From Minisyncoccota bacterium (GTDB lineage: Bacteria; Patescibacteriota; Minisyncoccia; 2-02-FULL-40-12; GWA2-44-9), in the NCBI GenBank assembly GCA_030583765.1, contig CP129474.1:521348-585347 (forward strand): a stretch of 64,000 nt of DNA, given 5' to 3'. The position numbers and the translations under genes were made by a program. Below are positions 7,714 to 50,082 of the stretch, one piece after another. The notes under the pieces are model-generated. The model saw only the letters and a list, made by a program, of their open reading frames with translations. It ran no database searches and was not told the origin of the DNA. How positions within the stretch are numbered: the first letter of the stretch is position 1; each line of letters opens with the position of its first letter.

Positions 7714-7734
7714 ATACGCTCAGGAGGTGGCACT

Positions 7735-8328
7735 ATGGCCACGATGATGCAGGTCGGTCTGGCGGAGTTCGGCGCGAACGTCCGCCCCATCGCGGAGCGC
7801 ACCTTTCGGTGCCTCGTGCACAAGCGCGAGGTGACGTCTCGGGACGGTTTCGTCCTGAGCATCGGCAACATCCAGAAGGAGCTCGGACTGCCGGCGAAGC
7901 AGCTGCCGGCGATTCACCAGCTCAGCGGGTTCGTCGCCTGCTACGAGTGTCTCCCGAGTGTGAGGTCCTTCTACGGGGTGTCGTTCATGCCCCGCCTCGG
8001 GGACCAGCTCGCGCTGCTCGATCGGCACTTCAAGCTGGCGGCCCAGCAGGTGAGGGCGCGGCCGATCGCTCCGGCGACGGTCGTGCAGGGCACGACGACG
8101 GGGCGCACGGGGACGGCCATGCCCACGCTCCCTGCCGGCTACTTCGAGCGCCGGGGCCAGGCCCACAAGGGCCGGAAGTCCCGGGCCCAGAGGCGCGCGG
8201 AGGCGATGGCCAAGCGCGCGCGGCCGGCGGCCACCGCGGCCGTCGACAAGAAGGCCGCGAAGAAGGCCGCCAAGCAGGCGGCCAAGGCCAAGAACCAGAA
8301 GGGCAACGGTGGCAAGAAGCGCCACTAG
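7735..8328 (+). CDS. Hypothetical protein with histone H1/AlgP-like KAAK-repeat basic tail (cassette 2), likely nucleic-acid binding
   Basis: 197 aa. The N-terminal domain is about 110 aa. The tail reads ...KRARPAATAAVDKKAAKKAAKQAAKAKNQKGNGGKKRH. The sequence is very GC-rich. Overlapping alternative-frame ORFs are GC artefacts. Confidence 0.6.
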   Translation: MATMMQVGLAEFGANVRPIAERTFRCLVHKREVTSRDGFVLSIGNIQKELGLPAKQLPAIHQLSGFVACYECLPSVRSFYGVSFMPRLGDQLALLDRHFKLAAQQVRARPIAPATVVQGTTTGRTGTAMPTLPAGYFERRGQAHKGRKSRAQRRAEAMAKRARPAATAAVDKKAAKKAAKQAAKAKNQKGNGGKKRH

Positions 8329-8338
8329 CGGCCCACTT

Positions 8339-8388
8339 GCGGGGGTGTGTGCATACGGTGCACATACCCCCGCTTTTTCTTTGTTTTT
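8339..8388 (+). terminator. Intrinsic terminator of cassette 2
   Basis: GCGGGGGTGTGTGCA...TGCACATACCCCCGC hairpin followed by TTTTTCTTTGTTTTT. Confidence 0.6.
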
Positions 8389-8406
8389 CCATATAGGCAT
8401 ACACTA

Positions 8407-21393: not shown

Positions 21394-23607
21394 ATGGCTC
21401 GCCAAAGCAACGGGAAAAAGCGTGAAAAACCATCCGATGAGGGCGGGTCTTCGCTTTTCGATATATCGCAAGAAACGCGAAATAGCATCTGGGGCATTTT
21501 AAGCTTCATTACTGCTATCGTGGTCACCTTAAGCTTTTTGGGACGAGCGGGTTCCGCGGGTGAGCTCATTGATTCCGTTTCGCGACTCTTGTTCGGATGG
21601 GGATATATCCTTGTGCCCATTTCTTTTGCGCTTCTTGGCATTTCCTTCATTAAATCTCTCTCGCGACACATCGCCACGAGCGCTGTAGTGGGCACCATAA
21701 CGTTCGTACTCTCGACACTGGCGATCTTGCACATTCTTGGCGATGGAACCTTCGATGACCGCATTATACAGGGCGGATATTTAGGCGTGGTACTTGGATT
21801 CCCCCTCCTCTCTTCAGTCGGCTTTGTTGCGTCTCTTATTGTGCTGCTCTCGTTCTTGAGCATTTCCATCCTCCTCGCTCTCAACGTACCGTTGTCAGCA
21901 CTCTTCATGCGCGCTCCTGAAGAAGAGGCGGCGCCTCAGGAAGATGAGATTGTCATCCGTAACGCGCAAAAAGAATTAGCCCAAAAGCCCGCTCCAGCAC
22001 TTGCAGAAGTAAAACAAGCGGCGCCGCCAAAGGAAAAGGCTTCGAAAGTCGACGATGCTCCGGAAAAAGGTTTTGTTATTAAGAATTTGAAGCTTGGTAA
22101 ATGGAATCTTCCGCCGCTTAAACTCCTTTCGGAAGACCAAGACCAGGCATTGACGGGTGATATTCAAGCAAACGCAAACATTATTAAGCGCACGCTCGCG
22201 AATTTTGGCATTGAGGTAGAAATGGGCGAAGTGTCTATCGGGCCAACAGTTACCCAATTCACCATGCGCCCTGCGGTGGGCGTGCGCTTGTCGAAGATCT
22301 CGGCGCTCGGGCCAGATCTCGCCCTTGCGCTTGCCGCGCACCCCATTCGTATCGAGGCTCCTATTCCTGGAAAATCGCTCGTCGGCATCGAAGTTCCCAA
22401 CAAAAAGACAGCTATTGTTGGTCTCCGCAATCTCCTTGAGGCCGATGAGTATGCTCGTGGGAAAGCGTTCCTACCCCTTGCGATTGGACGTGATGTGGGT
22501 GGTCTTTCAGTCTATGGCAGTTTGGAGCGCATGCCACACCTGCTCGTTGCTGGTGCCACGGGCACGGGCAAATCAGTTATGGTGAATGGCATCCTCCTTT
22601 CGCTTTTGTATAAACACTCGCCAGAAACACTGAAACTCATTCTTGTTGATCCAAAGCGCGTTGAGCTGTCCATCTATAACGACATCCCACACCTCATTAC
22701 GCCAGTGATCACGGATACTAAGAAAGTGATGGGGGCGTTGAAGTGGGCGGTGAGTGAAATGGATCGCCGCTACGATCAGCTCTCAAAGGTTGGTTCGCGA
22801 GATCTCTTTTCATACAACACGAAGATGGTTGCAGAGGGAAAGGACATCATGCCGTTCATCGTCATTGTGATTGATGAAATGGCAGACCTCATGGCTTCAT
22901 TCGGGCGTGACGTTGAAGCGGCAATCGTGCGCCTTGCGCAGATGTCGCGCGCCGTCGGCATCCACCTCATTCTTTCAACGCAGCGTCCTTCCGTTGAAGT
23001 TATTACTGGGCTCATTAAGGCGAACATTACCTCGCGCATTGCGCTACAGGTGGCAAGCCAAATTGACTCGCGCACCATCATCGATATGGCGGGCGCAGAA
23101 AAACTGCTCGGCCGCGGCGACCTCCTCTTCATGTCGGGTGACGCGGCGAAGCTCCGTCGCGTACAGGCGCCGTTAGTTACTGAAAAAGAAGTGCACGATG
23201 TTGTGGCGTTCTTGCGTGAACAGGCAGAAGAGCTGAATCTTTCACAGAATGAGTCTCTGAGTTCTGAGCTTACCAACTCACTTGCAAACGGTGGTCCACA
23301 AGGACAGGGTGGCGACAACGGCTCTGATGAAGATGATCTCTACGACGAGGCAAAGCGCATCGTCATAGACTCAGGCAAAGCCTCAGCATCTTTGTTGCAG
23401 CGTCGTCTGCGCGTGGGATATGCGCGTGCTGCGCGCCTCCTGGACATCCTCGAAGATAAAGGCATCATCGGTCCAGGTGAGGGGGCAAAGCCGCGAGAGG
23501 TCTACGTGCAAGCAGATGGTGCGCCGAGTGCGCCTCCTATGGGGTATGCACCCGTGGCGACGGCAGTATCTGCTGACACGCTAGAAGCAGAGCGAGATGA
23601 GCAGTAA
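21394..23607 (+). CDS. ftsK: DNA translocase FtsK/SpoIIIE
   Basis: 737 aa with N-terminal TM helices, Walker A (GATGTGKSV) and a C-terminal gamma domain. Confidence 0.9.
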
Positions 23608-23639
23608 TGAATAATCCACTGCGCTTGAGGGAGCGTAGT

Positions 23640-24713
23640 ATGCGTATGGTAAAAAAAGATCACAAAAAGGAAGCAAAGCCCAACATGACGAGCAAAGATA
23701 ACCGCCATATTGATATTGCCGTCAAAGAAATTCAAGAAAAATACGGTGACGGCGCTATTATGAAATTGGGCGAAGCGCGAAAGGTTGATGTTGATGTTAT
23801 CCCTTCCGGATCTATTTCACTCGATCTTGCTCTTGGGGTTGGAGGCATGCCGCGCGGCCGTGTTATTGAAGTGTATGGTCCTGAAAGCTCGGGCAAAACA
23901 ACGCTCGCGCTCCATCTCGTGTCCGAAGTGCAAAAGCAGGGTGGTGTTGCTGCGTATGTTGACGCGGAACACGCACTTGATCCCGAATATGCGAAGCGTA
24001 TTGGGGTAAAAACGCAGGACTTGCTCATTTCTCAACCAGATCACGGTGAACAAGCACTCGAAATTGTGGAAACGCTGGTTCGCTCCGGCGCCGTTTCGTT
24101 GGTGGTCGTAGACTCTGTCGCAGCACTTACGCCTCGCGCAGAAATTGAAGGTGAGATGGACCAGCAGCATGTCGGCCTTCAAGCGCGCCTCATGAGCCAT
24201 GCGCTGCGCAAGCTCGCAGGTGTTGCAGCAAAAACAAACACCACCATTTTATTCATTAACCAGATTCGTCAGAAGATTGGAGTCATGTTTGGGAACCCAG
24301 AGACAACCACCGGCGGCTTAGCGCTAAAGTTCTATGCATCGGTGCGTGTTGAGATTCGTCGTTCAGCGCAAATTCAAAGCGGCGAGCGTATCATTGGAAA
24401 TCGTGTGAAGGTGAAGATTGTAAAGAATAAGGTAGCTGCACCATTCCGTACGTGTGAGTTCGACATCTTCTACAACGAAGGCATCTCTGCAGAGTCTGAT
24501 TTGATTAACACGGGGGTACTCTATGGGGTGGTCGGCAAGGCGGGTAGCTGGTATACGCGTGGCGCAGACAAGCTCGGACAAGGCATGGAAGGTGCGCGCG
24601 CATTCTTGAAAGAGAATCCAAAAATCCGAAAGGAAATCTTCGATGCAATTAAAAAAGCTGCTGCCCTCGGTGAGGCACCAGCGAAACAAGCGCCCCTTGC
24701 ATCCGAAGAGTAG
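23640..24713 (+). CDS. recA: Recombinase RecA
   Basis: Walker [10 protein letters not shown] and L1/L2 loops. The start may instead be 23607, where TAATG overlaps the ftsK stop. Confidence 0.9.
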
Positions 24714-24716
24714 CGC

Positions 24717-25619
24717 TTATACTTTTGCTTCCGAATAGATCTCATCAAGCCACGGATAGCCTGATGAGACTTCACGTTGCATAAAATTAATCTCTTCTTG
24801 AGGAAGGCTAAGTGAGTCAAGGAGTGCAAAAAATCCTTCGCGTAGCTGCTCGGGCGTCGTGGGTACTGTTTGCGTCCACAACATTTCTGCAAGACGCCAG
24901 AAGCGTAGCATGGCTCCTTCGCGCGTTGCGCATACCGCCATAAGGTTTTCTTCTGGCAGGCTGTCTAATTCGGAGCGATACGTGAGCCATGAGCCGGCGG
25001 GCCCTATTTCTTTAGGGCAAAAGAGGTCGACAAAATAGAGCGTCCCATCAGTGTCTGGGACAACGTTTGCGAGCTTTAAATCAATGCCATGAGGGAGAGC
25101 GGTTACCTCTCGTCCGGAGATTGTTTTTCGATGGAGAGCGCCACGTGGATAGTGCGCGAGCTGGGCGAATGTTTGCCGTACAATGCTCCATCGAAGGAAA
25201 TTCGGTTGCTCTGGGTTGGTAAATATTTTTTCGCCATCAGCGCGTCCGATGCGTTGCTCGTATGAAAATATCTGCCCCTCATTTCCTTGCTGGAGTGTTT
25301 TTGTGTAATACGTATGTGGTATATTCCATCCAAAGCGCACTAGTTCTCTGCGATATGGCTCGAGGCGGGATTCTAAGTGCCGCGCTACATTAAAAGGTAA
25401 GCCTTTTCCGGCTCCCATTCGTTTAAATAACACTTGTTGTGGAGTGCCGTGCTCTCGGTACTCTAGAATAGAAACTCGAGATTGGCGACCTTGGCTGATA
25501 CCATCGGGAGGAAGTACTGAAAAAATGATATGTGGTTCATCAGCGCGAAGAATGTGCAATTCTGACGGAGTTGGTTCAAAGAGCTTGGCGTGGTGGGCGA
25601 GTACATCTTTCTTTTCCAT
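24717..25619 (-). CDS. Hypothetical protein, possible kinase-like (APH/ChoK-like) fold
   Basis: 300 aa. The HGIDLKLANVV...FVDLF segment resembles the catalytic and DFG-like loops of aminoglycoside/choline kinase-like phosphotransferases. This is weak. Confidence 0.4.
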   Translation of the reverse strand: MEKKDVLAHHAKLFEPTPSELHILRADEPHIIFSVLPPDGISQGRQSRVSILEYREHGTPQQVLFKRMGAGKGLPFNVARHLESRLEPYRRELVRFGWNIPHTYYTKTLQQGNEGQIFSYEQRIGRADGEKIFTNPEQPNFLRWSIVRQTFAQLAHYPRGALHRKTISGREVTALPHGIDLKLANVVPDTDGTLYFVDLFCPKEIGPAGSWLTYRSELDSLPEENLMAVCATREGAMLRFWRLAEMLWTQTVPTTPEQLREGFFALLDSLSLPQEEINFMQREVSSGYPWLDEIYSEAKV

Positions 25620-26828: not shown

Positions 26829-26954
26829 ATCAATACTTTTGGGTTTCCGCACGCCCGAGAGGCGCAGATGTGGGCCTCTCGTCATGCAGTTATTGCATTA
26901 CCAGTGCCTAGATTACCAAGGAAATATGGGCATGTCAACGTTGTTGAGGGTATA

Positions 26955-26983
26955 TTGACTATATCGTATTTATTTTGTACTAT
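26955..26983 (+). promoter_or_regulatory. Cassette 3 promoter: TTGACT-17bp-TACTAT
   Basis: -35 at 26955-60 and -10 at 26978-83. RBS AGGAGGTGGCA is at 26993-27003 and the GTG start is at 27004. The native rpsF promoter is divergent just upstream. Confidence 0.55.
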
Positions 26984-27003
26984 ATGCGTCCAAGGAGGTG
27001 GCA

Positions 27004-27315
27004 GTGAATCAGAAAAAGCGAGCGACCGCGTCGCTAGCGGAGCTCGTTGCCGAAGTATCAGGGTGGCGGTTTGTGGTGGGGATGGCGGCCGTCATCGGGA
27101 GCCTCTTCATCTTCGTCTGTATGTTCCGAGCGGGCGTTGCGTGGGAACAAGGGCGTCTCGTTGCCGCAGTTGCTCTTGCGGCAGCTTCACTGGTTGCCGT
27201 CATCCTGTTTCTCGTGATCCTCACCATCGCTACGCGCAACTTGCGGGGCGACGTGCGGGAGTTTGCGAGACGCATGGGTGCTGGCATGGGCGATGACGCT
27301 GGGCTTAAGATCTAG
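27004..27315 (+). CDS. Small 2-TM membrane protein (cassette 3, gene a)
   Basis: 103 aa with two hydrophobic helices (VVGMAAVIGSLFIFV..., LVAAVALAAASLVAVILFLVIL). It is GC-rich and starts at a GTG placed by the RBS. Confidence 0.55.
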   Translation: MNQKKRATASLAELVAEVSGWRFVVGMAAVIGSLFIFVCMFRAGVAWEQGRLVAAVALAAASLVAVILFLVILTIATRNLRGDVREFARRMGAGMGDDAGLKI

Positions 27316-27330
27316 TGGGGGGGGTGAATC

Positions 27331-27936
27331 GTGAAGGTTCTCGTCGTTGCCGGGTACGGGGTGACGCCCGTACGAAACTACGCCATGGAGACAGAGCGCT
27401 ATCTGCTCCGTGCCGCAGAGTTGCTCAGGGAGGCATACGAGGGCGGCGATCCGTTCTCCAATCTCATCCTGTGCGGCGGCATGACCCAGCAGAAGACATC
27501 GCCACATGTCACAGAGGCGTACGCGATGCACGAACGTCTTCGCACGTTGACCATGTGGACTGATGGGAAGCTCGTACCCTCCTTCTGGGACGCTGTGCTG
27601 GTCTCGCACGAAGAGCGTTCATTCACTTCGCTGGAGAACGTACGAAACGCGAGTGAGCGCATTTATCAGCTGTGGGAGCAATTCGATGAGGAGCTCCACA
27701 TCACCGTGCTGTGCGAAGGCATGCGCCTCCTGAAGTGGCAGATCTTGTGTCGCCACTTCATGCCGAAGACGACCACGCCCATCCAGTACGAGATCGTCAA
27801 CTGGGAGCTGATGTCACCCCACAAGGAGTTGATGGCGACCATCTGGGACGCGTGTTCGGTCTCGATTCCCATTATCGGGCCAGCGATGGCGTGGTGGTGG
27901 GGATGGCGTCGCCGTCGGCGCGCCAAGCACATCTAG
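27331..27936 (+). CDS. DUF218 (YdcF/SanA/ElyC)-like protein with W/R-rich C-terminal tail (cassette 3, gene b)
   Basis: 201 aa. VLVVAGYG...R...LILCGGMTQQKTSPHVTEAYAMHERL resembles the DUF218 GG/SEA core. The tail reads AMAWWWGWRRRRRAKHI. Start is GTG. Confidence 0.55.
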   Translation: MKVLVVAGYGVTPVRNYAMETERYLLRAAELLREAYEGGDPFSNLILCGGMTQQKTSPHVTEAYAMHERLRTLTMWTDGKLVPSFWDAVLVSHEERSFTSLENVRNASERIYQLWEQFDEELHITVLCEGMRLLKWQILCRHFMPKTTTPIQYEIVNWELMSPHKELMATIWDACSVSIPIIGPAMAWWWGWRRRRRAKHI

Positions 27937-27945
27937 CCCCTACCG

Positions 27946-27985
27946 CCGGTCGCACACGTTGTGCGGTCGGCGGGCTTTTATTTTC
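27946..27985 (+). terminator. Intrinsic terminator of cassette 3
   Basis: CCGCCGGTCGCACACGTTGTGCGGTCGGCGG hairpin followed by GCTTTTATTTT. The ychF stop codon (complement of 27978-80) lies inside the T tract. Confidence 0.6.
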
Positions 27986-29060: not shown

Positions 29061-29106
29061 TCGAGAATCCTAGCAAAAAAGCCCTTTGTGGGCCAGATGG
29101 CGCATA

Positions 29107-29135
29107 TTGACTTTATCGCTTTAAACTGGTATAAT
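29107..29135 (+). promoter_or_regulatory. Cassette 4 promoter: TTGACT-17bp-TGGTATAAT (extended -10) plus about 100-nt structured leader
   Basis: -35 at 29107-12 and -10 at 29130-35. The leader has hairpins CCATCCTCTAGGAGGGGATGG and TCGGCTAACAGCCGA before RBS GGAGAGAAGCA and ATG 29242. Confidence 0.55.
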
Positions 29136-29241
29136 TATAGAGTACAGTGTAGTACCTTTACATGCAGAACTGCCGCATTTCGCGGCCCATCCTCTAGGAG
29201 GGGATGGAAGAATCTCGGCTAACAGCCGAAGGAGAGAAGCA

Positions 29242-29835
29242 ATGAAGTATGACGAGATGACGTGGGGCACGATGGAGGCCGTGGTCAACAAGCTTGGCGG
29301 CATGGATGGCGTTCAGCGCTTCCTGCGCGGCGCGCTCAAGGTCGTCGAGGCGGAGGCCAATGCCGCCTTCTCGACGTTCCAGAAGATCACGCTCAGCGTG
29401 TACGACAACGTCGCGACGCTTCGCAAGGCGATCGCGGACAGCGGCAACAACATCAGCGACTACGGGGAAGACCTGCTCGCCAAGATGTCGCTGGTGAAGG
29501 AGCCCGTCGAGCTCGAGCTGGTGTGCGTGTCGGTCAAGGATCTGGGCCTGAAGTCCGGAGCCACGATCAAGCAGATCTACGATCGCGCTCGCAAGCTTGG
29601 CTTGGACCTCTGCCCGGCCCAGGTCGGACCCGAGCTCCGCCTGGCCTACCAGGATCAGCCCATCGGCGAGTGGCTGCTGGTGGCGATGGAGCAGATCACG
29701 GATCGCAACGGTCACCCGAGCGTGTTCATCGTCGGGTGTGACGTCCACGGCGTCCGCTGGTTGGACGGCGATTACGCCTACCCGAGCAACACCTGGAGCG
29801 GCCTCAGCCGTTGGGTGTTCGTCCGTCGCGCGTAA
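29242..29835 (+). CDS. Hypothetical protein (cassette 4)
   Basis: 197 aa beginning MKYDEMTWGTMEAVVNKLGG... It is GC-rich with G/C3 codons. No motif was recognised. Confidence 0.55.
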   Translation: MKYDEMTWGTMEAVVNKLGGMDGVQRFLRGALKVVEAEANAAFSTFQKITLSVYDNVATLRKAIADSGNNISDYGEDLLAKMSLVKEPVELELVCVSVKDLGLKSGATIKQIYDRARKLGLDLCPAQVGPELRLAYQDQPIGEWLLVAMEQITDRNGHPSVFIVGCDVHGVRWLDGDYAYPSNTWSGLSRWVFVRRA

Positions 29836-29886
29836 GCCCTTAGCGCTTGGCAGCTTAGTTCTCTGAACTTGGAAGCTGAGCCCTGC

Positions 29887-29920
29887 GCCCGCACAGAAAT
29901 GTGCGGGCTCTTTATTTTTA
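29887..29920 (+). terminator. Intrinsic terminator of cassette 4
   Basis: GCCCGCAC-AGAAAT-GTGCGGGC followed by TCTTTATTTTTA. The terminal TTA is the stop codon (complement) of the convergent nucleotidyltransferase gene. Confidence 0.6.
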
Positions 29921-30662: not shown

Positions 30663-31181
30663 CTAGAGCTCGTACGGCGGTGCGGCAGGCGGCTCGGCGG
30701 GGAAAACGCTCTGCGGGTACGGCCTTTGCGGCCGGATGTAGGGCTCCCAGATGAGCGTTCTCTGCGCGCGATAGACGTGTTCCCACACGCCTTCGAGTTC
30801 CGGTGCCGTGAACCAGCGCACATCGCTGATCTCGTCCGTGGGAAGCTGGGCATGCACCGGAGATGTTTCGGAGAACTGTTGACGGGGGAACTCCCACATG
30901 AGGACGATCCCCGGCGATTTGGCGAGCGTGAAGGCGTGTGGGCACCACATGGAGGGGGCGGTCAACCAGTATCCAGTCTCCTCCCTCAATTCGCGTGCCA
31001 GTGCATCCCAGAGCCGCTCTCCGATCATGGGCGCTCCGCCAGGGAGTGACCACTGTCGAGAAGGGTATCCCGGCACCTCGTAGTTGTGCTGAACGAGGAG
31101 GATTTTCGGCTCCTTCCCTGGTGTGCGGTTGACGATGTGGGCGAAGACGCCCACCTGCGTAATGTCTCGTTTATCTCTCAC
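30663..31181 (-). CDS. NUDIX hydrolase (cassette 5, minus strand)
   Basis: 172 aa with Nudix box GGAPMIGERLWDALARELREETG. It is GC-rich with G/C3 codons. The GTG start follows RBS AAGGAGGT. Confidence 0.8.
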   Translation of the reverse strand: MRDKRDITQVGVFAHIVNRTPGKEPKILLVQHNYEVPGYPSRQWSLPGGAPMIGERLWDALARELREETGYWLTAPSMWCPHAFTLAKSPGIVLMWEFPRQQFSETSPVHAQLPTDEISDVRWFTAPELEGVWEHVYRAQRTLIWEPYIRPQRPYPQSVFPAEPPAAPPYEL

Positions 31182-31233: not shown

Positions 31234-32249
31234 AGCCCCATGGCGGTGCGCACTTTACGCATCGTTTCTTCTGCAATGACTCGGGCTTTTTCTTCGGATG
31301 CTTCCAATATAGCCGTTACCTGTGCGGGATCTGCGGTGAGTTCGGCGTGCTTTTGCTGAAATGGCGCAAGTGCCGTGATGATCGCCTCTGCGAGATCGTG
31401 TTTGAAATCCGCGTAGCCACTGGACGCATAGCGAGCTTCGAGCTCTGGGATCGGTGTGCCGCTCACAACACTGAAAATAGTGAGTAAGTTAGCGATGGCT
31501 GGCCGTTCGGTGGGTTGGTAGGTAATGCCGGTGCCTGAATCAGTGACGGCACGCTTTATCTTTGCGCGAATGGTGTCTGGTGCGTCAGTGAGGGCAATGC
31601 CATCGTCGCCCGTCTTTGACATCTTTTTCGTAGGATCTTGCAGAGACATGATGCGAGCGCCCTGCTCTTCTGCCATGTGCGCTTTTACGGTGGTAAATGT
31701 TTCGCCACCTGCCCGGCCAGGGAATAAATGGTTGAACTTACGTGCTATTTCATTGGTGACATCAATGTGCACGAGCTGATCTTCGCCCACTGGAACGAGG
31801 GTTGTGTTGTAAAGCAGAATGTCTGCCGCCATGAGTACGGGATAGGAAAGAATGGCGAGGTTGTTGCCATAGCTTCCTGCGCGAGGAGAAAGTGATGCTT
31901 CGATCTGCTCACCCTTCTCTCGGTAGTTGGGGAGGCGGTCTAGCCAACTGATGGGCGTAATGGAAGATAAGAGCCACATGAGCTCGGCATGCTGGGGAAC
32001 GCGAGACTGGCGGATGATAAGCGCACGCGAAGGATCTACGCCCGCGGCAATGTAGTTAATGGCCGCATCGCGCACGCGCTCTGGCATGTCGGCTGGTTCG
32101 TAGGGCGTAGTGATGCCGTGAAGGTCTACGACGGCGTACACTGCTTGTTCTGCGTCGCGCTGAAGGGCAACCCACTGTTTGAGTGCGCCCACATAGTTGC
32201 CAAGATGGAGCTTGCCACTGGGGCGCATGCCAGAAAAAACTCGTTGCAT
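31230..32249 (-). CDS. trpS: Tryptophan--tRNA ligase
   Basis: 339 aa with a HIGH-type region (..GKLHLGNYVGAL..) and KMSKT. Confidence 0.9.
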   Translation of the reverse strand: MQRVFSGMRPSGKLHLGNYVGALKQWVALQRDAEQAVYAVVDLHGITTPYEPADMPERVRDAAINYIAAGVDPSRALIIRQSRVPQHAELMWLLSSITPISWLDRLPNYREKGEQIEASLSPRAGSYGNNLAILSYPVLMAADILLYNTTLVPVGEDQLVHIDVTNEIARKFNHLFPGRAGGETFTTVKAHMAEEQGARIMSLQDPTKKMSKTGDDGIALTDAPDTIRAKIKRAVTDSGTGITYQPTERPAIANLLTIFSVVSGTPIPELEARYASSGYADFKHDLAEAIITALAPFQQKHAELTADPAQVTAILEASEEKARVIAEETMRKVRTAMGL

Positions 32250-32298
32250 AGTGCTTCAAGAATAGAGGAATTAAGGTCTTTTCGCAATACGGAGAATA

Positions 32299-32327
32299 TT
32301 GACCGTTGTGATATTTATTGGTATAAC
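32299..32327 (+). promoter_or_regulatory. Cassette 6 promoter: TTGACC-17bp-TATAAC
   Basis: -35 at 32299-304 and -10 at 32322-27. RBS AAGGAGG is at 32336-42 and the ATG at 32349. Confidence 0.55.
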
Positions 32328-32348
32328 TATGCACGAAGGAGGCGCACC

Positions 32349-32786
32349 ATGAGATCTTGTTTGACATTGGCACACGAGCCGTACGAGCCCTTGCGCATCG
32401 CGCGCGACGAGCTCGTCGTCGTTTCGGAAACGGATCCGGGGAGCATCCCCGCGTTCGTGGATCGGTTTCGGGACGTTTCTGCTCCGATTCCGATCGAGTG
32501 CGTGGACCACCTTCGCAAGCTGGTGACAGCGATCATCCAGAAGATGGAGTTCGCGTCTGCGAACGGGTGGCCGTCACGTAGGCCGATGTACTTCCATGTC
32601 TGTCGCCTGAACGACCTGTCAGCGAAGGAGTGCGAGCTCTGGGAGGACGCCGCGCAGCTCATCTACAAGGAGTTGCACGCTTGCGGCTGGACGCAGGCCA
32701 TCGTGGACGAGGTGGAGTGGCAGAACGTGGAGGACGAGGGGACGGAGCGTTACGAGCGCTCGCTCGTCATCAACCTGTTCATGTAG
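32349..32786 (+). CDS. Hypothetical protein (cassette 6)
   Basis: 146 aa beginning MRSCLTLAHEPYEPLRIARDELVVV... It is GC-rich. The RBS-placed ATG is in frame inside the 31989 ORF. No motif was recognised. Confidence 0.55.
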   Translation: MRSCLTLAHEPYEPLRIARDELVVVSETDPGSIPAFVDRFRDVSAPIPIECVDHLRKLVTAIIQKMEFASANGWPSRRPMYFHVCRLNDLSAKECELWEDAAQLIYKELHACGWTQAIVDEVEWQNVEDEGTERYERSLVINLFM

Positions 32787-49341: not shown

Positions 49342-50082
49342 ATGGCGTACAATATGAGTTTAGAGCAAATACCAAATCAAGCACCTAAGCAGGAAATAAA
49401 AGTTCAACCTAAAATAGAAGTTGAACCAAATTTTGATGGTTTCGTTCCAGATGAATTTAAAAACGACCCCCTAAAATATTTTGAAGAGAAGGGCACTAAC
49501 ATAAAGCCTGGAGAAACAAAATATGATGAAACTGGTCGGGTCCGCGAAGATCCAACCGCTGTAAAAGATTTACCAGTTTGGAAGAATAAAGAAGGAGTTG
49601 AGCTACATACAGTTGGAAAAAGAGTGAACAAAGAGAAGGGCAAGATTGGTGAGATTAGGGATCCGTTTTATGAATATAAAGTTATGGAAATTATTCAAGA
49701 ATTAGGTTTGCCATGTCCTAGGCCAGTTGCAAGGGTAGAACAAGGAGGCAATAACCTTATCGTGATGGAACGAGTTCATGGTATCCGTTGGCCAGATAAA
49801 GATAGTCTACATCTTAATGAGAAAGGATATTCTGCTGAAGATATTCAGGGCTTGATCAGCCAGGCAGAGGTCATGGTAAGGGAATTGCATAGAAAATTCG
49901 AAGACGCTGGTATTTCAAGAGATTGGAAATTAAAAGATATGCTTTTTGATATTGACATAGAAAATAAGAAAATTAATTCCATTGTTCCTACAGATTGGGA
50001 AAGAACCACAATAAACCAAGAAAAATTGGCACAGGCCAGAGCATTGAAGCGACAAACTAAATTAGATACCGAAGGACCCTAA
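49342..50082 (+). CDS. Hypothetical protein in AT-rich islet, possible atypical (RIO/Kdo-like) kinase fold
   Basis: 246 aa, K/E-rich. LIVMERVHG...RDWKLKDMLFDID loosely resembles the hinge and catalytic-loop regions of small atypical kinases. This is weak. Confidence 0.35.
   Translation: MAYNMSLEQIPNQAPKQEIKVQPKIEVEPNFDGFVPDEFKNDPLKYFEEKGTNIKPGETKYDETGRVREDPTAVKDLPVWKNKEGVELHTVGKRVNKEKGKIGEIRDPFYEYKVMEIIQELGLPCPRPVARVEQGGNNLIVMERVHGIRWPDKDSLHLNEKGYSAEDIQGLISQAEVMVRELHRKFEDAGISRDWKLKDMLFDIDIENKKINSIVPTDWERTTINQEKLAQARALKRQTKLDTEGP

What the first reader, a model, noticed from the sequence alone, without database searches (positions are those of the whole stretch)
26955..27985. Two-gene cassette: 2-TM membrane protein plus DUF218/YdcF-like protein with a WWWGWRRRRR tail
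This is the only multi-gene unit among the anomalous cassettes, and it has one promoter, two ORFs and one terminator. Gene a (27004-27315) encodes 103 aa with two TM helices. Gene b (27331-27936) carries a DUF218-like core (VLVVAGYG..., LILCGGMTQQKTSPHVTEAYAMHERL).

Gene b ends in an unusual Trp-cluster plus oligo-arginine tail (AMAWWWGWRRRRRAKHI). That tail reads like a membrane-interfacial anchor or nucleic-acid-binding motif. DUF218 proteins (SanA/ElyC/YdcF) are envelope-associated and poorly understood. Pairing with a dedicated small membrane partner under a strong promoter suggests a membrane-targeted module, for example an envelope-stress, exclusion or abortive-infection-like function. 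This is speculation.
Basis: partly seen in the sequence, partly recalled or inferred. Interest (0 to 1): 0.8.

Follow-up and report, generated by a model that had tools for sequence, protein, structure and literature searches.

The report
Membrane hairpin plus divergent DUF218 operon
This is a real two-gene operon in an uncultured Paceibacterota (Patescibacteria) chromosome: a small two-helix membrane protein followed by a divergent, probably cytoplasmic YdcF-like DUF218 protein with a Trp/Arg tail; it sits at a conserved chromosomal position and shows no sign of being a mobile defence cassette.

Summary
Window 26955-27985 carries a promoter-like site, two same-strand ORFs 15 nt apart and a strong terminator-like hairpin. 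Gene a (103 aa) is a two-helix membrane hairpin.

Gene b lies between rpsF and ychF in at least eight diverged lineages, so it is a resident chromosomal gene. Gene a occurs only in the window's narrow clade. An unrelated two-TM partner family sits downstream of b in three other lineages. E. coli sanA-yeiS has the same architecture.

No defence or phage profile matches either protein. The family has no conserved histidine, so the SanA Thr-His-Glu triad is not kept; Cys128, Glu129 and Arg132 are conserved instead.

My best reading is a cytoplasmic-face, membrane-tethered DUF218 enzyme of unknown substrate. It is a new variant of a known kind, of moderate interest.

The parts
26955..26983 (+). 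Promoter-like site: -35 TTGACT (26955-26960), 17-nt spacer, -10 TACTAT (26978-26983)
   Evidence: Consensus scan, 9 of 12 matches. Equivalent sites exist in relatives: L002 TTGACC/TATCAT and L005 TTGACA/TATGCT. The intergenic alignment is conserved. Function is inferred, not shown.
26992..26998 (+). Shine-Dalgarno AAGGAGG, 5 nt upstream of the gene a start codon
   Evidence: Read directly from the sequence. Invariant in four lineages.
27004..27315 (+). Gene a: 103-aa two-TM helical hairpin, predicted N-in/C-in, lineage-specific and fast-evolving
   Evidence: ORF. Hydropathy peaks 2.58 and 3.03. AlphaFold hairpin at pLDDT 63. Homologues found only in four close lineages. dN/dS 0.33-0.71. No Pfam, NCBIfam, PADLOC or PHROGs family.
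27317..27327 (+). G-rich Shine-Dalgarno-like run (GGGGGGGGTGA) in the 15-nt spacer between genes a and b
   Evidence: Read directly from the sequence. Co-transcription and translational coupling are inferred.
27331..27936 (+). Gene b: 201-aa divergent DUF218 / YdcF-like protein with no N-terminal TM or signal peptide
27874..27933 (+). C-terminal helix of gene b (residues 182-201); the Trp cluster plus penta-Arg (W188-R197) is at 27892-27921
   Evidence: AlphaFold helix 182-200, pLDDT about 89-95. Nearly invariant in four lineages. The family-wide basic tail has a median of 6 K/R and 1 D/E in the last 22 residues; three or more Trp occur only in this clade, P0009 and two other proteins. Strongest Wimley-White interfacial segment of the protein. 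Not laterally amphipathic.
27943..27985 (+). Intrinsic-terminator-like hairpin (14-bp stem, 3-nt loop) plus T-run; the ychF stop codon (27978-27980, minus strand) lies inside the T-run
   Evidence: Scan. Single copy in the window. Conserved after gene b in L001, L002 and L005, and duplicated as a 50-nt direct repeat around the extra gene x191 in L005.

Best explanation
This is a resident two-gene operon of a Candidatus Paceibacterota chromosome, lying between the divergent rpsF-ssb-rpsR operon and the convergent ychF gene.

**Gene b.** It encodes a cytoplasmic, YdcF-like DUF218 (Rossmann-like) domain. The protein belongs to a small subfamily in which every named source is Patescibacteria. The subfamily motifs are GYG, CGGxTQ, SEA, SxTTxEN, FCEAxRALK and SWE. 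The classical DUF218 histidine is absent; a conserved Cys128-Glu129...Arg132 cluster stands in that strand-helix junction. The domain ends in a hydrophobic-then-polybasic C-terminal helix.

**The tail.** In this clade it has become WWWGW-RRRRR. I infer that it pins the enzyme to the cytoplasmic face of the anionic membrane: the Trp residues sit at the interface and the Arg residues contact phospholipid head groups.

**Gene a.** It is a lineage-specific N-in/C-in two-TM hairpin with a conserved acidic juxtamembrane motif (AELxxE...W). I infer that it acts as a membrane-embedded partner or docking site for gene b.

**Likely activity.** By analogy with SanA and ElyC, the enzyme may act on or sense a membrane-bound anionic substrate, such as an undecaprenyl-(pyro)phosphate-linked wall precursor, but from the cytoplasmic side.

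**Shown versus inferred.**
- Shown: the gene structure, the fold, family membership, synteny, tail conservation, and the hydrophobic two-helix hairpin of gene a (membrane insertion itself was not tested).
- Inferred: membrane tethering through the tail (about 0.5), physical a-b interaction (about 0.3), and a lipid-linked substrate (about 0.2).
For: **Identity and fold**
- The identical protein comes from a Paceibacterota MAG and is named ElyC/SanA/YdcF family.
- Pfam DUF218 E = 2.7e-5 for this protein; 29 of 32 family members hit it.
- An exhaustive profile search of 1.84 billion representatives finds only 75 proteins at E <= 1e-3. Listed lengths run from 103 to 235 aa, mostly about 170-210.
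- All named sources are Patescibacteria.

**Resident gene**
- The order rpsF(-), b(+), ychF(-) recurs in the window clade and in L007/8, L009, L019/20, L024 and L026. It is partly visible in L015 and L023/25.

**Cytoplasmic location**
- No N-terminal hydrophobic segment is present.

**Tail**
- Conserved in the clade.
- Basic across the family.
- The strongest interfacial segment of the protein, Wimley-White -7.1 kcal/mol over 11 residues.

**Membrane partners**
- Gene a lies upstream in four lineages.
- An unrelated two-TM-plus-soluble-domain family lies directly downstream of gene b in L005, L015 and L023/25 (BLASTP 1e-9 to 5e-7).
- E. coli sanA-yeiS is a described operon of a DUF218 gene and a 79-aa two-TM gene.

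**Active site**
- The family has no conserved His. C128, E129 and R132 are invariant or nearly so. MAFFT places R132 at the position of SanA H149.
Against: - Membrane binding, a-b contact and the substrate were not tested.
- The tail is not laterally amphipathic: median hydrophobic moment 0.22, no better than shuffled sequences. It therefore differs from classical in-plane anchors such as the MinD membrane-targeting sequence.
- Most family members have few Trp residues and no adjacent membrane-protein gene. Membrane tethering may therefore be clade-specific or wrong.
- Gene a evolves fast, down to 24-26% identity where gene b keeps 63-65%. This is unusual for an obligate partner.
- In E. coli, deleting yeiS does not reproduce sanA phenotypes. 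The precedent operon therefore does not prove functional coupling.
- Sequence profile-profile matches to E. coli DUF218 proteins are weak (hhalign E about 1e-3).
Confidence: 0.55

Rival explanations
1. The C-terminal helix is an arginine-rich nucleic-acid-binding motif rather than a membrane anchor. Under this reading, gene b is a nucleotide- or SAM-using enzyme acting on RNA or the ribosome. Its adjacency to gene a would then be incidental.
For: - The family-wide tail (for example ERERRRRIRRAEQI or RRKRMERAKHI) is dominated by Arg and has little hydrophobic moment. From my own knowledge, it resembles arginine-rich RNA-binding peptides such as lambda N.
- Gene b is flanked by translation-related genes (rpsF, ssb, rpsR, ychF) in many lineages.
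- Most lineages have no membrane-protein neighbour.
Against: - Gene b is divergent from rpsF and convergent with ychF, so it is not co-transcribed with either.
- In this clade a WWWGW block precedes the Arg run. A Trp block next to a basic run is, from general knowledge of interfacial membrane-binding peptides, more typical of membrane anchoring than of RNA binding.
- Two-TM hairpin genes recur next to gene b in four or more lineages.
- No RNA-binding domain or Rfam element was detected nearby.
Confidence: 0.2
2. The pair is a horizontally acquired, self-contained stress, exclusion or abortive-infection cassette, in which a membrane effector (gene a) is controlled by gene b.
For: - The cassette has its own promoter-like site and terminator.
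- Its composition is anomalous: GC3 is 0.79 for gene b and 0.68 for gene a, against 0.45-0.60 for most genes.
- The two genes evolve much faster than their flanks.
- The gene content between rpsF and ychF varies: a+b, a+b+x190/191, b alone, or b+NUDIX.
- The a-b block is about 80% identical to L001 while the flanks are 98-100% identical, which points to allele exchange by recombination.
- Gene a has a holin-like size and topology.
Against: - Neither protein matches any PADLOC or PHROGs profile.
- No integrase, transposase or repeats flank the unit in the window.
- Gene b occupies the same chromosomal slot in lineages only about 30% identical to it, which argues for vertical inheritance.
- Raised GC3 also marks gene b homologues in distant genomes, so it is a property of the gene, not evidence of recent import.
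- The same recombination mosaic affects recA.
- dN/dS of gene b is 0.13-0.24, which indicates purifying rather than diversifying selection.
Confidence: 0.07
3. Gene b is a tail-anchored integral membrane protein. Residues about 175-192 would span the bilayer and the RRRRR stretch would act as a stop-transfer signal. The DUF218 domain would then be on the outer face, as in SanA and ElyC.
For: - A 17-residue apolar stretch (SVSIPIIGPAMAWWWGW) is followed by five Arg residues, which resembles a TM segment with a positive-inside flank.
- Characterised envelope DUF218 proteins work in the periplasm.
Against: - The highest 19-residue hydropathy is 1.34, below the 1.6 threshold.
- The stretch contains two Pro and two Gly residues and is modelled as helix-turn-helix, not as one long helix.
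- With the Arg residues inside, a 175-residue N-terminal domain would have to cross the membrane without a signal peptide.
- In most of the family the corresponding segment is short and charged, for example LGLAERE.
Confidence: 0.05

Closest known systems
E. coli YdcF (PDB 3ca8), the cytoplasmic DUF218 protein reported to bind S-adenosyl-L-methionine
   Same: - It has no membrane anchor or signal peptide.
- It shares the GG...EA and S/T-x-x-E-N motifs.
   Different: - Structural alignment shows only 14% identity, and sequence searches of the PDB find nothing.
- YdcF is 266 aa with a different C-terminal region. It lacks the basic or Trp-rich terminal helix and the FCEAxRALK and SWE motifs.
- SAM binding of gene b was not tested.
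E. coli sanA-yeiS operon (SanA: N-terminally anchored periplasmic DUF218 protein that modulates peptidoglycan/lipid II supply; YeiS: 79-aa DUF2542 protein)
   Same: - It is a two-gene operon of a DUF218 protein and a small protein with two hydrophobic helices.
- After the DUF218 core, SanA has a helix-turn-helix ending in basic residues ([20 protein letters not shown]). This aligns with the gene b tail region.
   Different: - The gene order is reversed.
- Gene a has no DUF2542 match.
- SanA has an N-terminal TM helix and works in the periplasm; gene b has neither.
- The SanA residues T125, H149 and E182 are required. Gene b keeps the Thr (T99), but the family has no conserved His.
- A yeiS deletion does not share the sanA phenotypes.
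ElyC / YgjQ (membrane-anchored periplasmic DUF218 envelope factors of Enterobacterales)
   Same: They have the same Pfam domain. ElyC inactivation impairs metabolism of the lipid carrier-linked precursor of peptidoglycan. This is the basis for my substrate guess.
   Different: - ElyC has two predicted N-terminal transmembrane domains; YgjQ is also predicted to be an integral membrane protein. Both have a periplasmic DUF218 domain.
- Their T/S-x-x-x-H-x-x-R-A motif is replaced in gene b by C-E-x-x-R-x-x-K.
- Their taxonomic range is different.

Membership tests
DUF218 / YdcF-like superfamily (Pfam PF02698) | Match to the Pfam DUF218 profile at or above the gathering score | tested here: inconclusive
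   This protein scores 24.5 bits (E = 2.7e-5) against a cut-off of 27.6, over residues 3-151 and profile positions 2-109 of 133. However, 29 of 32 family members match at E <= 0.01, best 5.2e-13, and many carry a precomputed PF02698 hit.
DUF218 / YdcF-like superfamily (Pfam PF02698) | YdcF-type Rossmann-like three-layer fold | tested here: met
   [not shown]
DUF218 / YdcF-like superfamily (Pfam PF02698) | Core motifs: G-G after strand 2, (S/T)-E-A, and S-x-T-x-E-N | tested here: met
   CGG49-50, TEA61-63 and SFTSLEN97-103 align with the SanA and YdcF motifs. They are invariant or nearly invariant in the family.
SanA-type DUF218 enzymes | Thr-His-Glu triad (SanA T125, H149, E182) required for function | tested here: not met
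   T99 is kept. No His is conserved anywhere in the family (invariant lists). MAFFT places invariant R132 at the position of H149, C128 at T145, and the variable D173 at E182. The alignment register is only moderately certain, because hhalign did not cover this segment.
SanA / ElyC / YgjQ (periplasmic, membrane-anchored DUF218 proteins) | N-terminal transmembrane anchor placing the DUF218 domain in the periplasm | tested here: not met
   Gene b starts directly with strand 1 (MKVLVVAGYG). The highest hydropathy in the first 40 residues is 0.77.
YdcF subgroup | Binding of S-adenosyl-L-methionine | not testable with these tools
   Only the PDB title and the papers state this for YdcF.
sanA-yeiS-type operon | The small partner belongs to DUF2542 (YeiS) | tested here: not met
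   YeiS matches DUF2542 at E = 9e-46. Gene a has no Pfam match better than E = 0.4. Only the architecture is shared.
Known anti-phage defence systems (PADLOC) / phage proteins (PHROGs), including holins | Profile match of either protein | tested here: not met
   PADLOC gives no family at E <= 1 for gene a or gene b. PHROGs gives none at E <= 0.1.
Tail-anchored integral membrane proteins | C-terminal segment hydrophobic enough to span the bilayer | tested here: not met
   The highest 19-residue Kyte-Doolittle mean is 1.34, below 1.6. The segment is modelled as helix-turn-helix.

The most novel reading that the evidence does not exclude
Gene b would define a Patescibacteria-specific, cytoplasmic-face counterpart of the SanA/ElyC envelope regulators. 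It would be a DUF218 enzyme whose catalytic His has been replaced by a Cys-Glu-Arg site. A Trp/Arg tail and fast-evolving two-TM hairpin partners (gene a here, the x191 family elsewhere) would hold it at the inner leaflet. It would control the supply of lipid-linked wall precursors, or of scavenged membrane lipid, in ultrasmall bacteria that cannot make their own lipids.
Probability: 0.12. Interest if true: 0.6.

Novelty: new variant of a known kind. Interest (0 to 1): 0.35.

Why it matters
The biochemical activity of DUF218 proteins is still unknown, even though SanA and ElyC are linked genetically to peptidoglycan and lipid-carrier balance.

This subfamily is small and compact. Its active-site residues are changed (no conserved His; conserved Cys-Glu-Arg), it is predicted to be cytoplasmic, and it carries a built-in membrane- or polyanion-binding tail. 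That makes it a useful natural variant for working out what the fold does.

It may also be informative about envelope biology in Patescibacteria, where almost nothing has been characterised experimentally.

For the scan itself, the main value is negative. This 'anomalous cassette' is a resident, syntenic operon, not a novel defence island.

Tried and rejected
- **PDB sequence searches.** Profiles of 4 and of 32 sequences found no relevant hit.
- **AFDB50 fold search.** The library was unavailable.
- **hhalign of the family against SanA, YdcF and a four-paralogue E. coli profile.** It produced only weak partial alignments with E about 1e-3 to 6e-2. The His-to-Arg mapping therefore rests on MAFFT and on the absence of any conserved His.
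- **Modelling a+b as one chain.** No complex model was obtained.
- **Gene a as a truncated relative of the downstream x191 family, and L001 x190 as a member of that family.** hhalign gave probabilities of 1.5% and 0.1%, so both ideas were rejected.
- **The terminator hairpin as a repeated element in the window.** It occurs only once there.
- **A riboswitch or leader RNA upstream of gene a.** No Rfam match at E <= 1.
- **NCBIfam.** It gave nothing for gene b, even though NCBI's own name places it in the ElyC/SanA/YdcF family.
- **The first genome-contig query.** The narrower query returned only 5 loci, so how often the family occurs across Patescibacteria is not established.
- **The Pfam Vif hit** (E = 0.008, Trp/Arg-rich region). 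I dismissed it as compositional.
Full report
**Source and setting**

The window is a bacterial chromosome segment carrying rpoB/rpoC-sized ORFs, ftsK, recA, rpsR, ssb, rpsF, ychF, a NUDIX gene and an aminoacyl-tRNA synthetase gene. The product of gene b is 100% identical to a protein that NCBI lists from a 'Candidatus Paceibacterota bacterium' MAG under the name 'ElyC/SanA/YdcF family protein'. Gene a is a 'hypothetical protein' in the same record. The organism is therefore an uncultured member of the Patescibacteria (CPR).

**1.

All reported coordinates hold.
- The promoter-like site is TTGACT, 17 nt, TACTAT at 26955-26983. It matches 9 of 12 consensus positions, so it is promoter-like rather than demonstrably strong.
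- AAGGAGG lies 5 nt before the GTG start of gene a at 27004. Gene a stops at 27315.
- A 15-nt G-rich spacer precedes the GTG start of gene b at 27331. Gene b stops at 27936.
- A 14-bp, GC-rich hairpin at 27943-27973 is followed by a T-run. The stop codon of the convergent ychF gene lies inside this T-run.
- The promoter hexamers, the Shine-Dalgarno sequence and the hairpin are conserved in three related lineages. This is better evidence for function than the consensus scores alone.

Gene a has two strongly hydrophobic segments, with Kyte-Doolittle peaks of 2.58 and 3.03. It is modelled as a helical hairpin, although at low confidence (pLDDT 63) because the alignment has only four sequences. 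Charge distribution suggests an N-in/C-in topology; this is an inference.

dN/dS is 0.33-0.71 for gene a and 0.13-0.24 for gene b. I read the lower values, at least, as purifying selection on real coding genes.

**2. Gene b is a divergent DUF218 protein**

On its own, gene b falls just short of the Pfam gathering score: 24.5 against 27.6 bits, E = 2.7e-5. Three further lines of evidence support the assignment.
- An exhaustive profile search of 1.84 billion representative proteins found 75 relatives at E <= 1e-3, with listed lengths of 103-235 aa, mostly about 170-210.
- 29 of 32 aligned family members hit DUF218, the best at 5e-13.

The fold and the GG / SEA / SxTxEN motifs therefore place gene b in the DUF218 superfamily.

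It is nevertheless a distinct subfamily.
- It has no N-terminal anchor or signal peptide, so it is predicted to be cytoplasmic, like YdcF. SanA, ElyC and YgjQ are periplasmic.
- SanA function requires T125, H149 and E182 (PMC12176290). The Thr is kept here (T99). No histidine is conserved anywhere in the family.
- The classical T/S-x-x-x-H-x-x-R-A strand-helix junction of SanA, ElyC and YgjQ reads C128-E129-x-x-R132-x-x-K135 in gene b. C128, E129 and R132 are invariant or nearly so.
- The exact alignment register rests on MAFFT plus secondary-structure boundaries. Profile-profile alignment did not reach this segment.

**3. The tail**

AMAWWWGWRRRRRAKHI is nearly invariant in four lineages whose proteins are otherwise 63-80% identical. 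It is modelled as a confident helix covering residues 182-200.

It is not an isolated oddity. Across 93 family members the last 22 residues carry a median of six Lys/Arg and one Asp/Glu. They are typically preceded by a short apolar F-P-x-L segment, for example FPWLGLAERERRRRIRRAEQI. Three or more Trp residues occur only in the window clade, its nearest outgroup P0009, and two other proteins.

The helix is block-polar, apolar first and then basic. It is not laterally amphipathic: the median hydrophobic moment is 0.22, no better than shuffled sequences. It is also not hydrophobic enough to span a membrane (highest 19-residue hydropathy 1.34).

On the Wimley-White interfacial scale it is by far the most membrane-seeking segment of the protein. 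I therefore favour an interfacial anchor to anionic lipid. An arginine-rich nucleic-acid-binding helix is the main rival. I could not inspect model coordinates to see whether the helix packs on the domain.

**4. Genomic context: resident, not mobile**

In the three closest lineages the same order recurs: ftsK, recA, (hyp300), rpsR, ssb, rpsF(-), a(+), b(+), [x190/191](+), ychF(-).

In relatives whose gene b protein is only about 30% identical, gene b still sits between rpsF and ychF, but without gene a. These are L007/8, L009, L019/20, L024 and L026. L015 and L023/25 show one side of the same arrangement. Other contexts also exist (L010, L011, L017).

Neither protein matches any PADLOC or PHROGs profile. 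The window shows no mobility genes or flanking repeats. The defence or abortive-infection idea therefore has no support.

**5. Membrane partners**

Gene a has homologues only in the window's narrow clade. It diverges quickly, to 24-26% identity where gene b keeps 63-65%.

Gene b is nevertheless repeatedly adjacent to two-TM hairpin genes.
- A family with an N-terminal two-TM hairpin and a soluble domain of about 130 aa lies immediately downstream of gene b in three places: L005 (x191), L015 (the P0009 lineage) and two Yanofskybacteria genomes. BLASTP E-values are 1e-9 to 5e-7.
- The window lacks this gene. In L005 it is bracketed by a 50-nt direct repeat of the gene b terminator. This suggests gain or loss through that repeat.
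- Gene a and this family are not detectably related.
- E. coli offers a precedent for the architecture. sanA and yeiS form a two-gene operon, and YeiS is a 79-aa protein with two hydrophobic helices. However, yeiS mutants do not share sanA phenotypes.

The a proteins share a conserved acidic motif, A-E-L-x-x-E...W, just before TM1. This is a candidate docking site for the basic tail of gene b. That idea is a hypothesis only.

**6. The compositional anomaly**

Genes a and b are GC3-rich (0.68 and 0.79) against 0.45-0.60 for most genes in the window. So are the neighbouring 197-aa ORF (0.89) and the NUDIX gene (0.75). These are also the fastest-diverging segments between related genomes.

Homologues of gene b in distant, lower-GC genomes are likewise GC3-enriched relative to their neighbours. 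The anomaly therefore travels with the gene and does not mark a recent import.

Window and L001 are 98-100% identical across ftsK and across hyp300 to rpsF. They are only about 80% identical in recA and in the a-b block. This points to population-level homologous recombination that is not specific to this cassette.

**7. Mechanism and verdict**

Best-supported reading (overall confidence about 0.55): a resident operon encoding a cytoplasmic, YdcF-like DUF218 enzyme with a remodelled active site. A Trp/Arg tail tethers it to the inner face of the membrane, together with a lineage-specific two-TM partner. The substrate is unknown. By analogy with SanA and ElyC, a lipid-carrier-linked wall precursor is a low-confidence guess (about 0.2).

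Rivals:
- An RNA- or nucleotide-directed enzyme with an arginine-rich nucleic-acid-binding tail (0.2).
- A defence or exclusion cassette (0.07).
- A true tail-anchored protein with an external DUF218 domain (0.05).

NCBI already labels this protein as an ElyC/SanA/YdcF family member, so its existence is not new. What is new is the definition of a subfamily, seen so far only in Patescibacteria, with these features: no conserved His, a conserved Cys-Glu-Arg cluster, a basic C-terminal helix, a conserved position between rpsF and ychF, and recurrent two-TM neighbours. I rate it a new variant of a known kind, with an interest score of 0.35.

Noticed in passing
window 29242-29835 (+), 30663-31181 (-), 31989-32786 / 32327-32662; compare 27004-27936: A set of genes with strongly raised GC3: 0.89 for the 197-aa ORF, 0.75 for the NUDIX gene, about 0.78 near 32.3-32.7 kb, and 0.79/0.68 for genes b/a. 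Most genes in the window have GC3 of 0.45-0.60. The same segments are the most divergent between related genomes (48-69% nucleotide identity against about 80-88% in the flanks). The cause is not explained.
   Followed up: partly
window 23600-24600 (recA) and 27000-27900 (a-b), compared with L001: Mosaic similarity. Window and L001 are 97-100% identical through ftsK and through hyp300-rpsR-ssb-rpsF, but only 77-88% identical in recA and in the a-b block. Window against L002 shows the reverse: a 91-97% patch at 24800-25500 in a background of about 80%. This points to frequent homologous recombination between species-level lineages.
   Followed up: partly
L005 6547-6596 and 7307-7356 (relative of the window); window 27937-27985: In L005, the 50-nt segment containing the gene b terminator hairpin is duplicated as a direct repeat (98% identity, 760 nt apart). 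It brackets an extra gene (x191) that has its own promoter-like site. The window and L002 have one copy and no x191, which is consistent with cassette gain or loss through the repeated terminator.
   Followed up: partly
L005 6719-7294; L015 906-1538; L023 1055-1735; L025 1063-1743: An uncharacterised protein family with an N-terminal two-TM hairpin and a soluble domain of about 130 aa (conserved F-W...H and W-x-x-Y near the C-terminus). It lies directly downstream of the DUF218 gene in three diverged Patescibacteria lineages. It has no Pfam or PHROGs match and is absent from the window.
   Followed up: partly
L004 10168-11163, L005 10098-11093 (relatives); corresponding window region about 29100-29920: Relatives carry a 331-aa reverse-transcriptase (RVT_1) gene, plus 227-aa and 76-aa ORFs, between ychF and the NTP-transferase gene. 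The window has only the unrelated GC3-rich 197-aa ORF there. This looks like a variable slot, possibly a retroelement or diversity-generating element in the relatives.
   Followed up: no
window 49342-50082 (+): A low-GC outlier ORF of 246 aa (GC 0.38, GC3 0.29 against a window mean of 0.52) with no Pfam match. It is a candidate for a recently acquired gene.
   Followed up: no
window 7720-8400 (both strands): A high-GC patch (about 0.60-0.68) with long overlapping ORFs on both strands (226 aa on the minus strand, 197 and 195 aa on the plus strand). None has a Pfam match, and the minus-strand ORF has GC1 of 0.88. The true coding frame is unclear.
   Followed up: no
window 26881-26940 (upstream of rpsF on the minus strand): A block of about 60 nt (GTCATGCAGTTATTGCATTACCA...ATTACCAAGGAAA...TGTCAA) is almost invariant across four lineages. 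It sits at the rpsF start and 5' region, in the a/rpsF intergenic space. It could be an rpsF leader or operator, but there is no Rfam match.
   Followed up: partly
L013 17879-18840 (E. coli K-12 sanA-yeiS): E. coli sanA is followed after 2 nt by yeiS, which encodes a 79-aa DUF2542 protein with two hydrophobic helices. The DUF218 plus small two-TM operon architecture therefore also exists in Enterobacteria, with an unrelated partner and the opposite gene order.
   Followed up: yes
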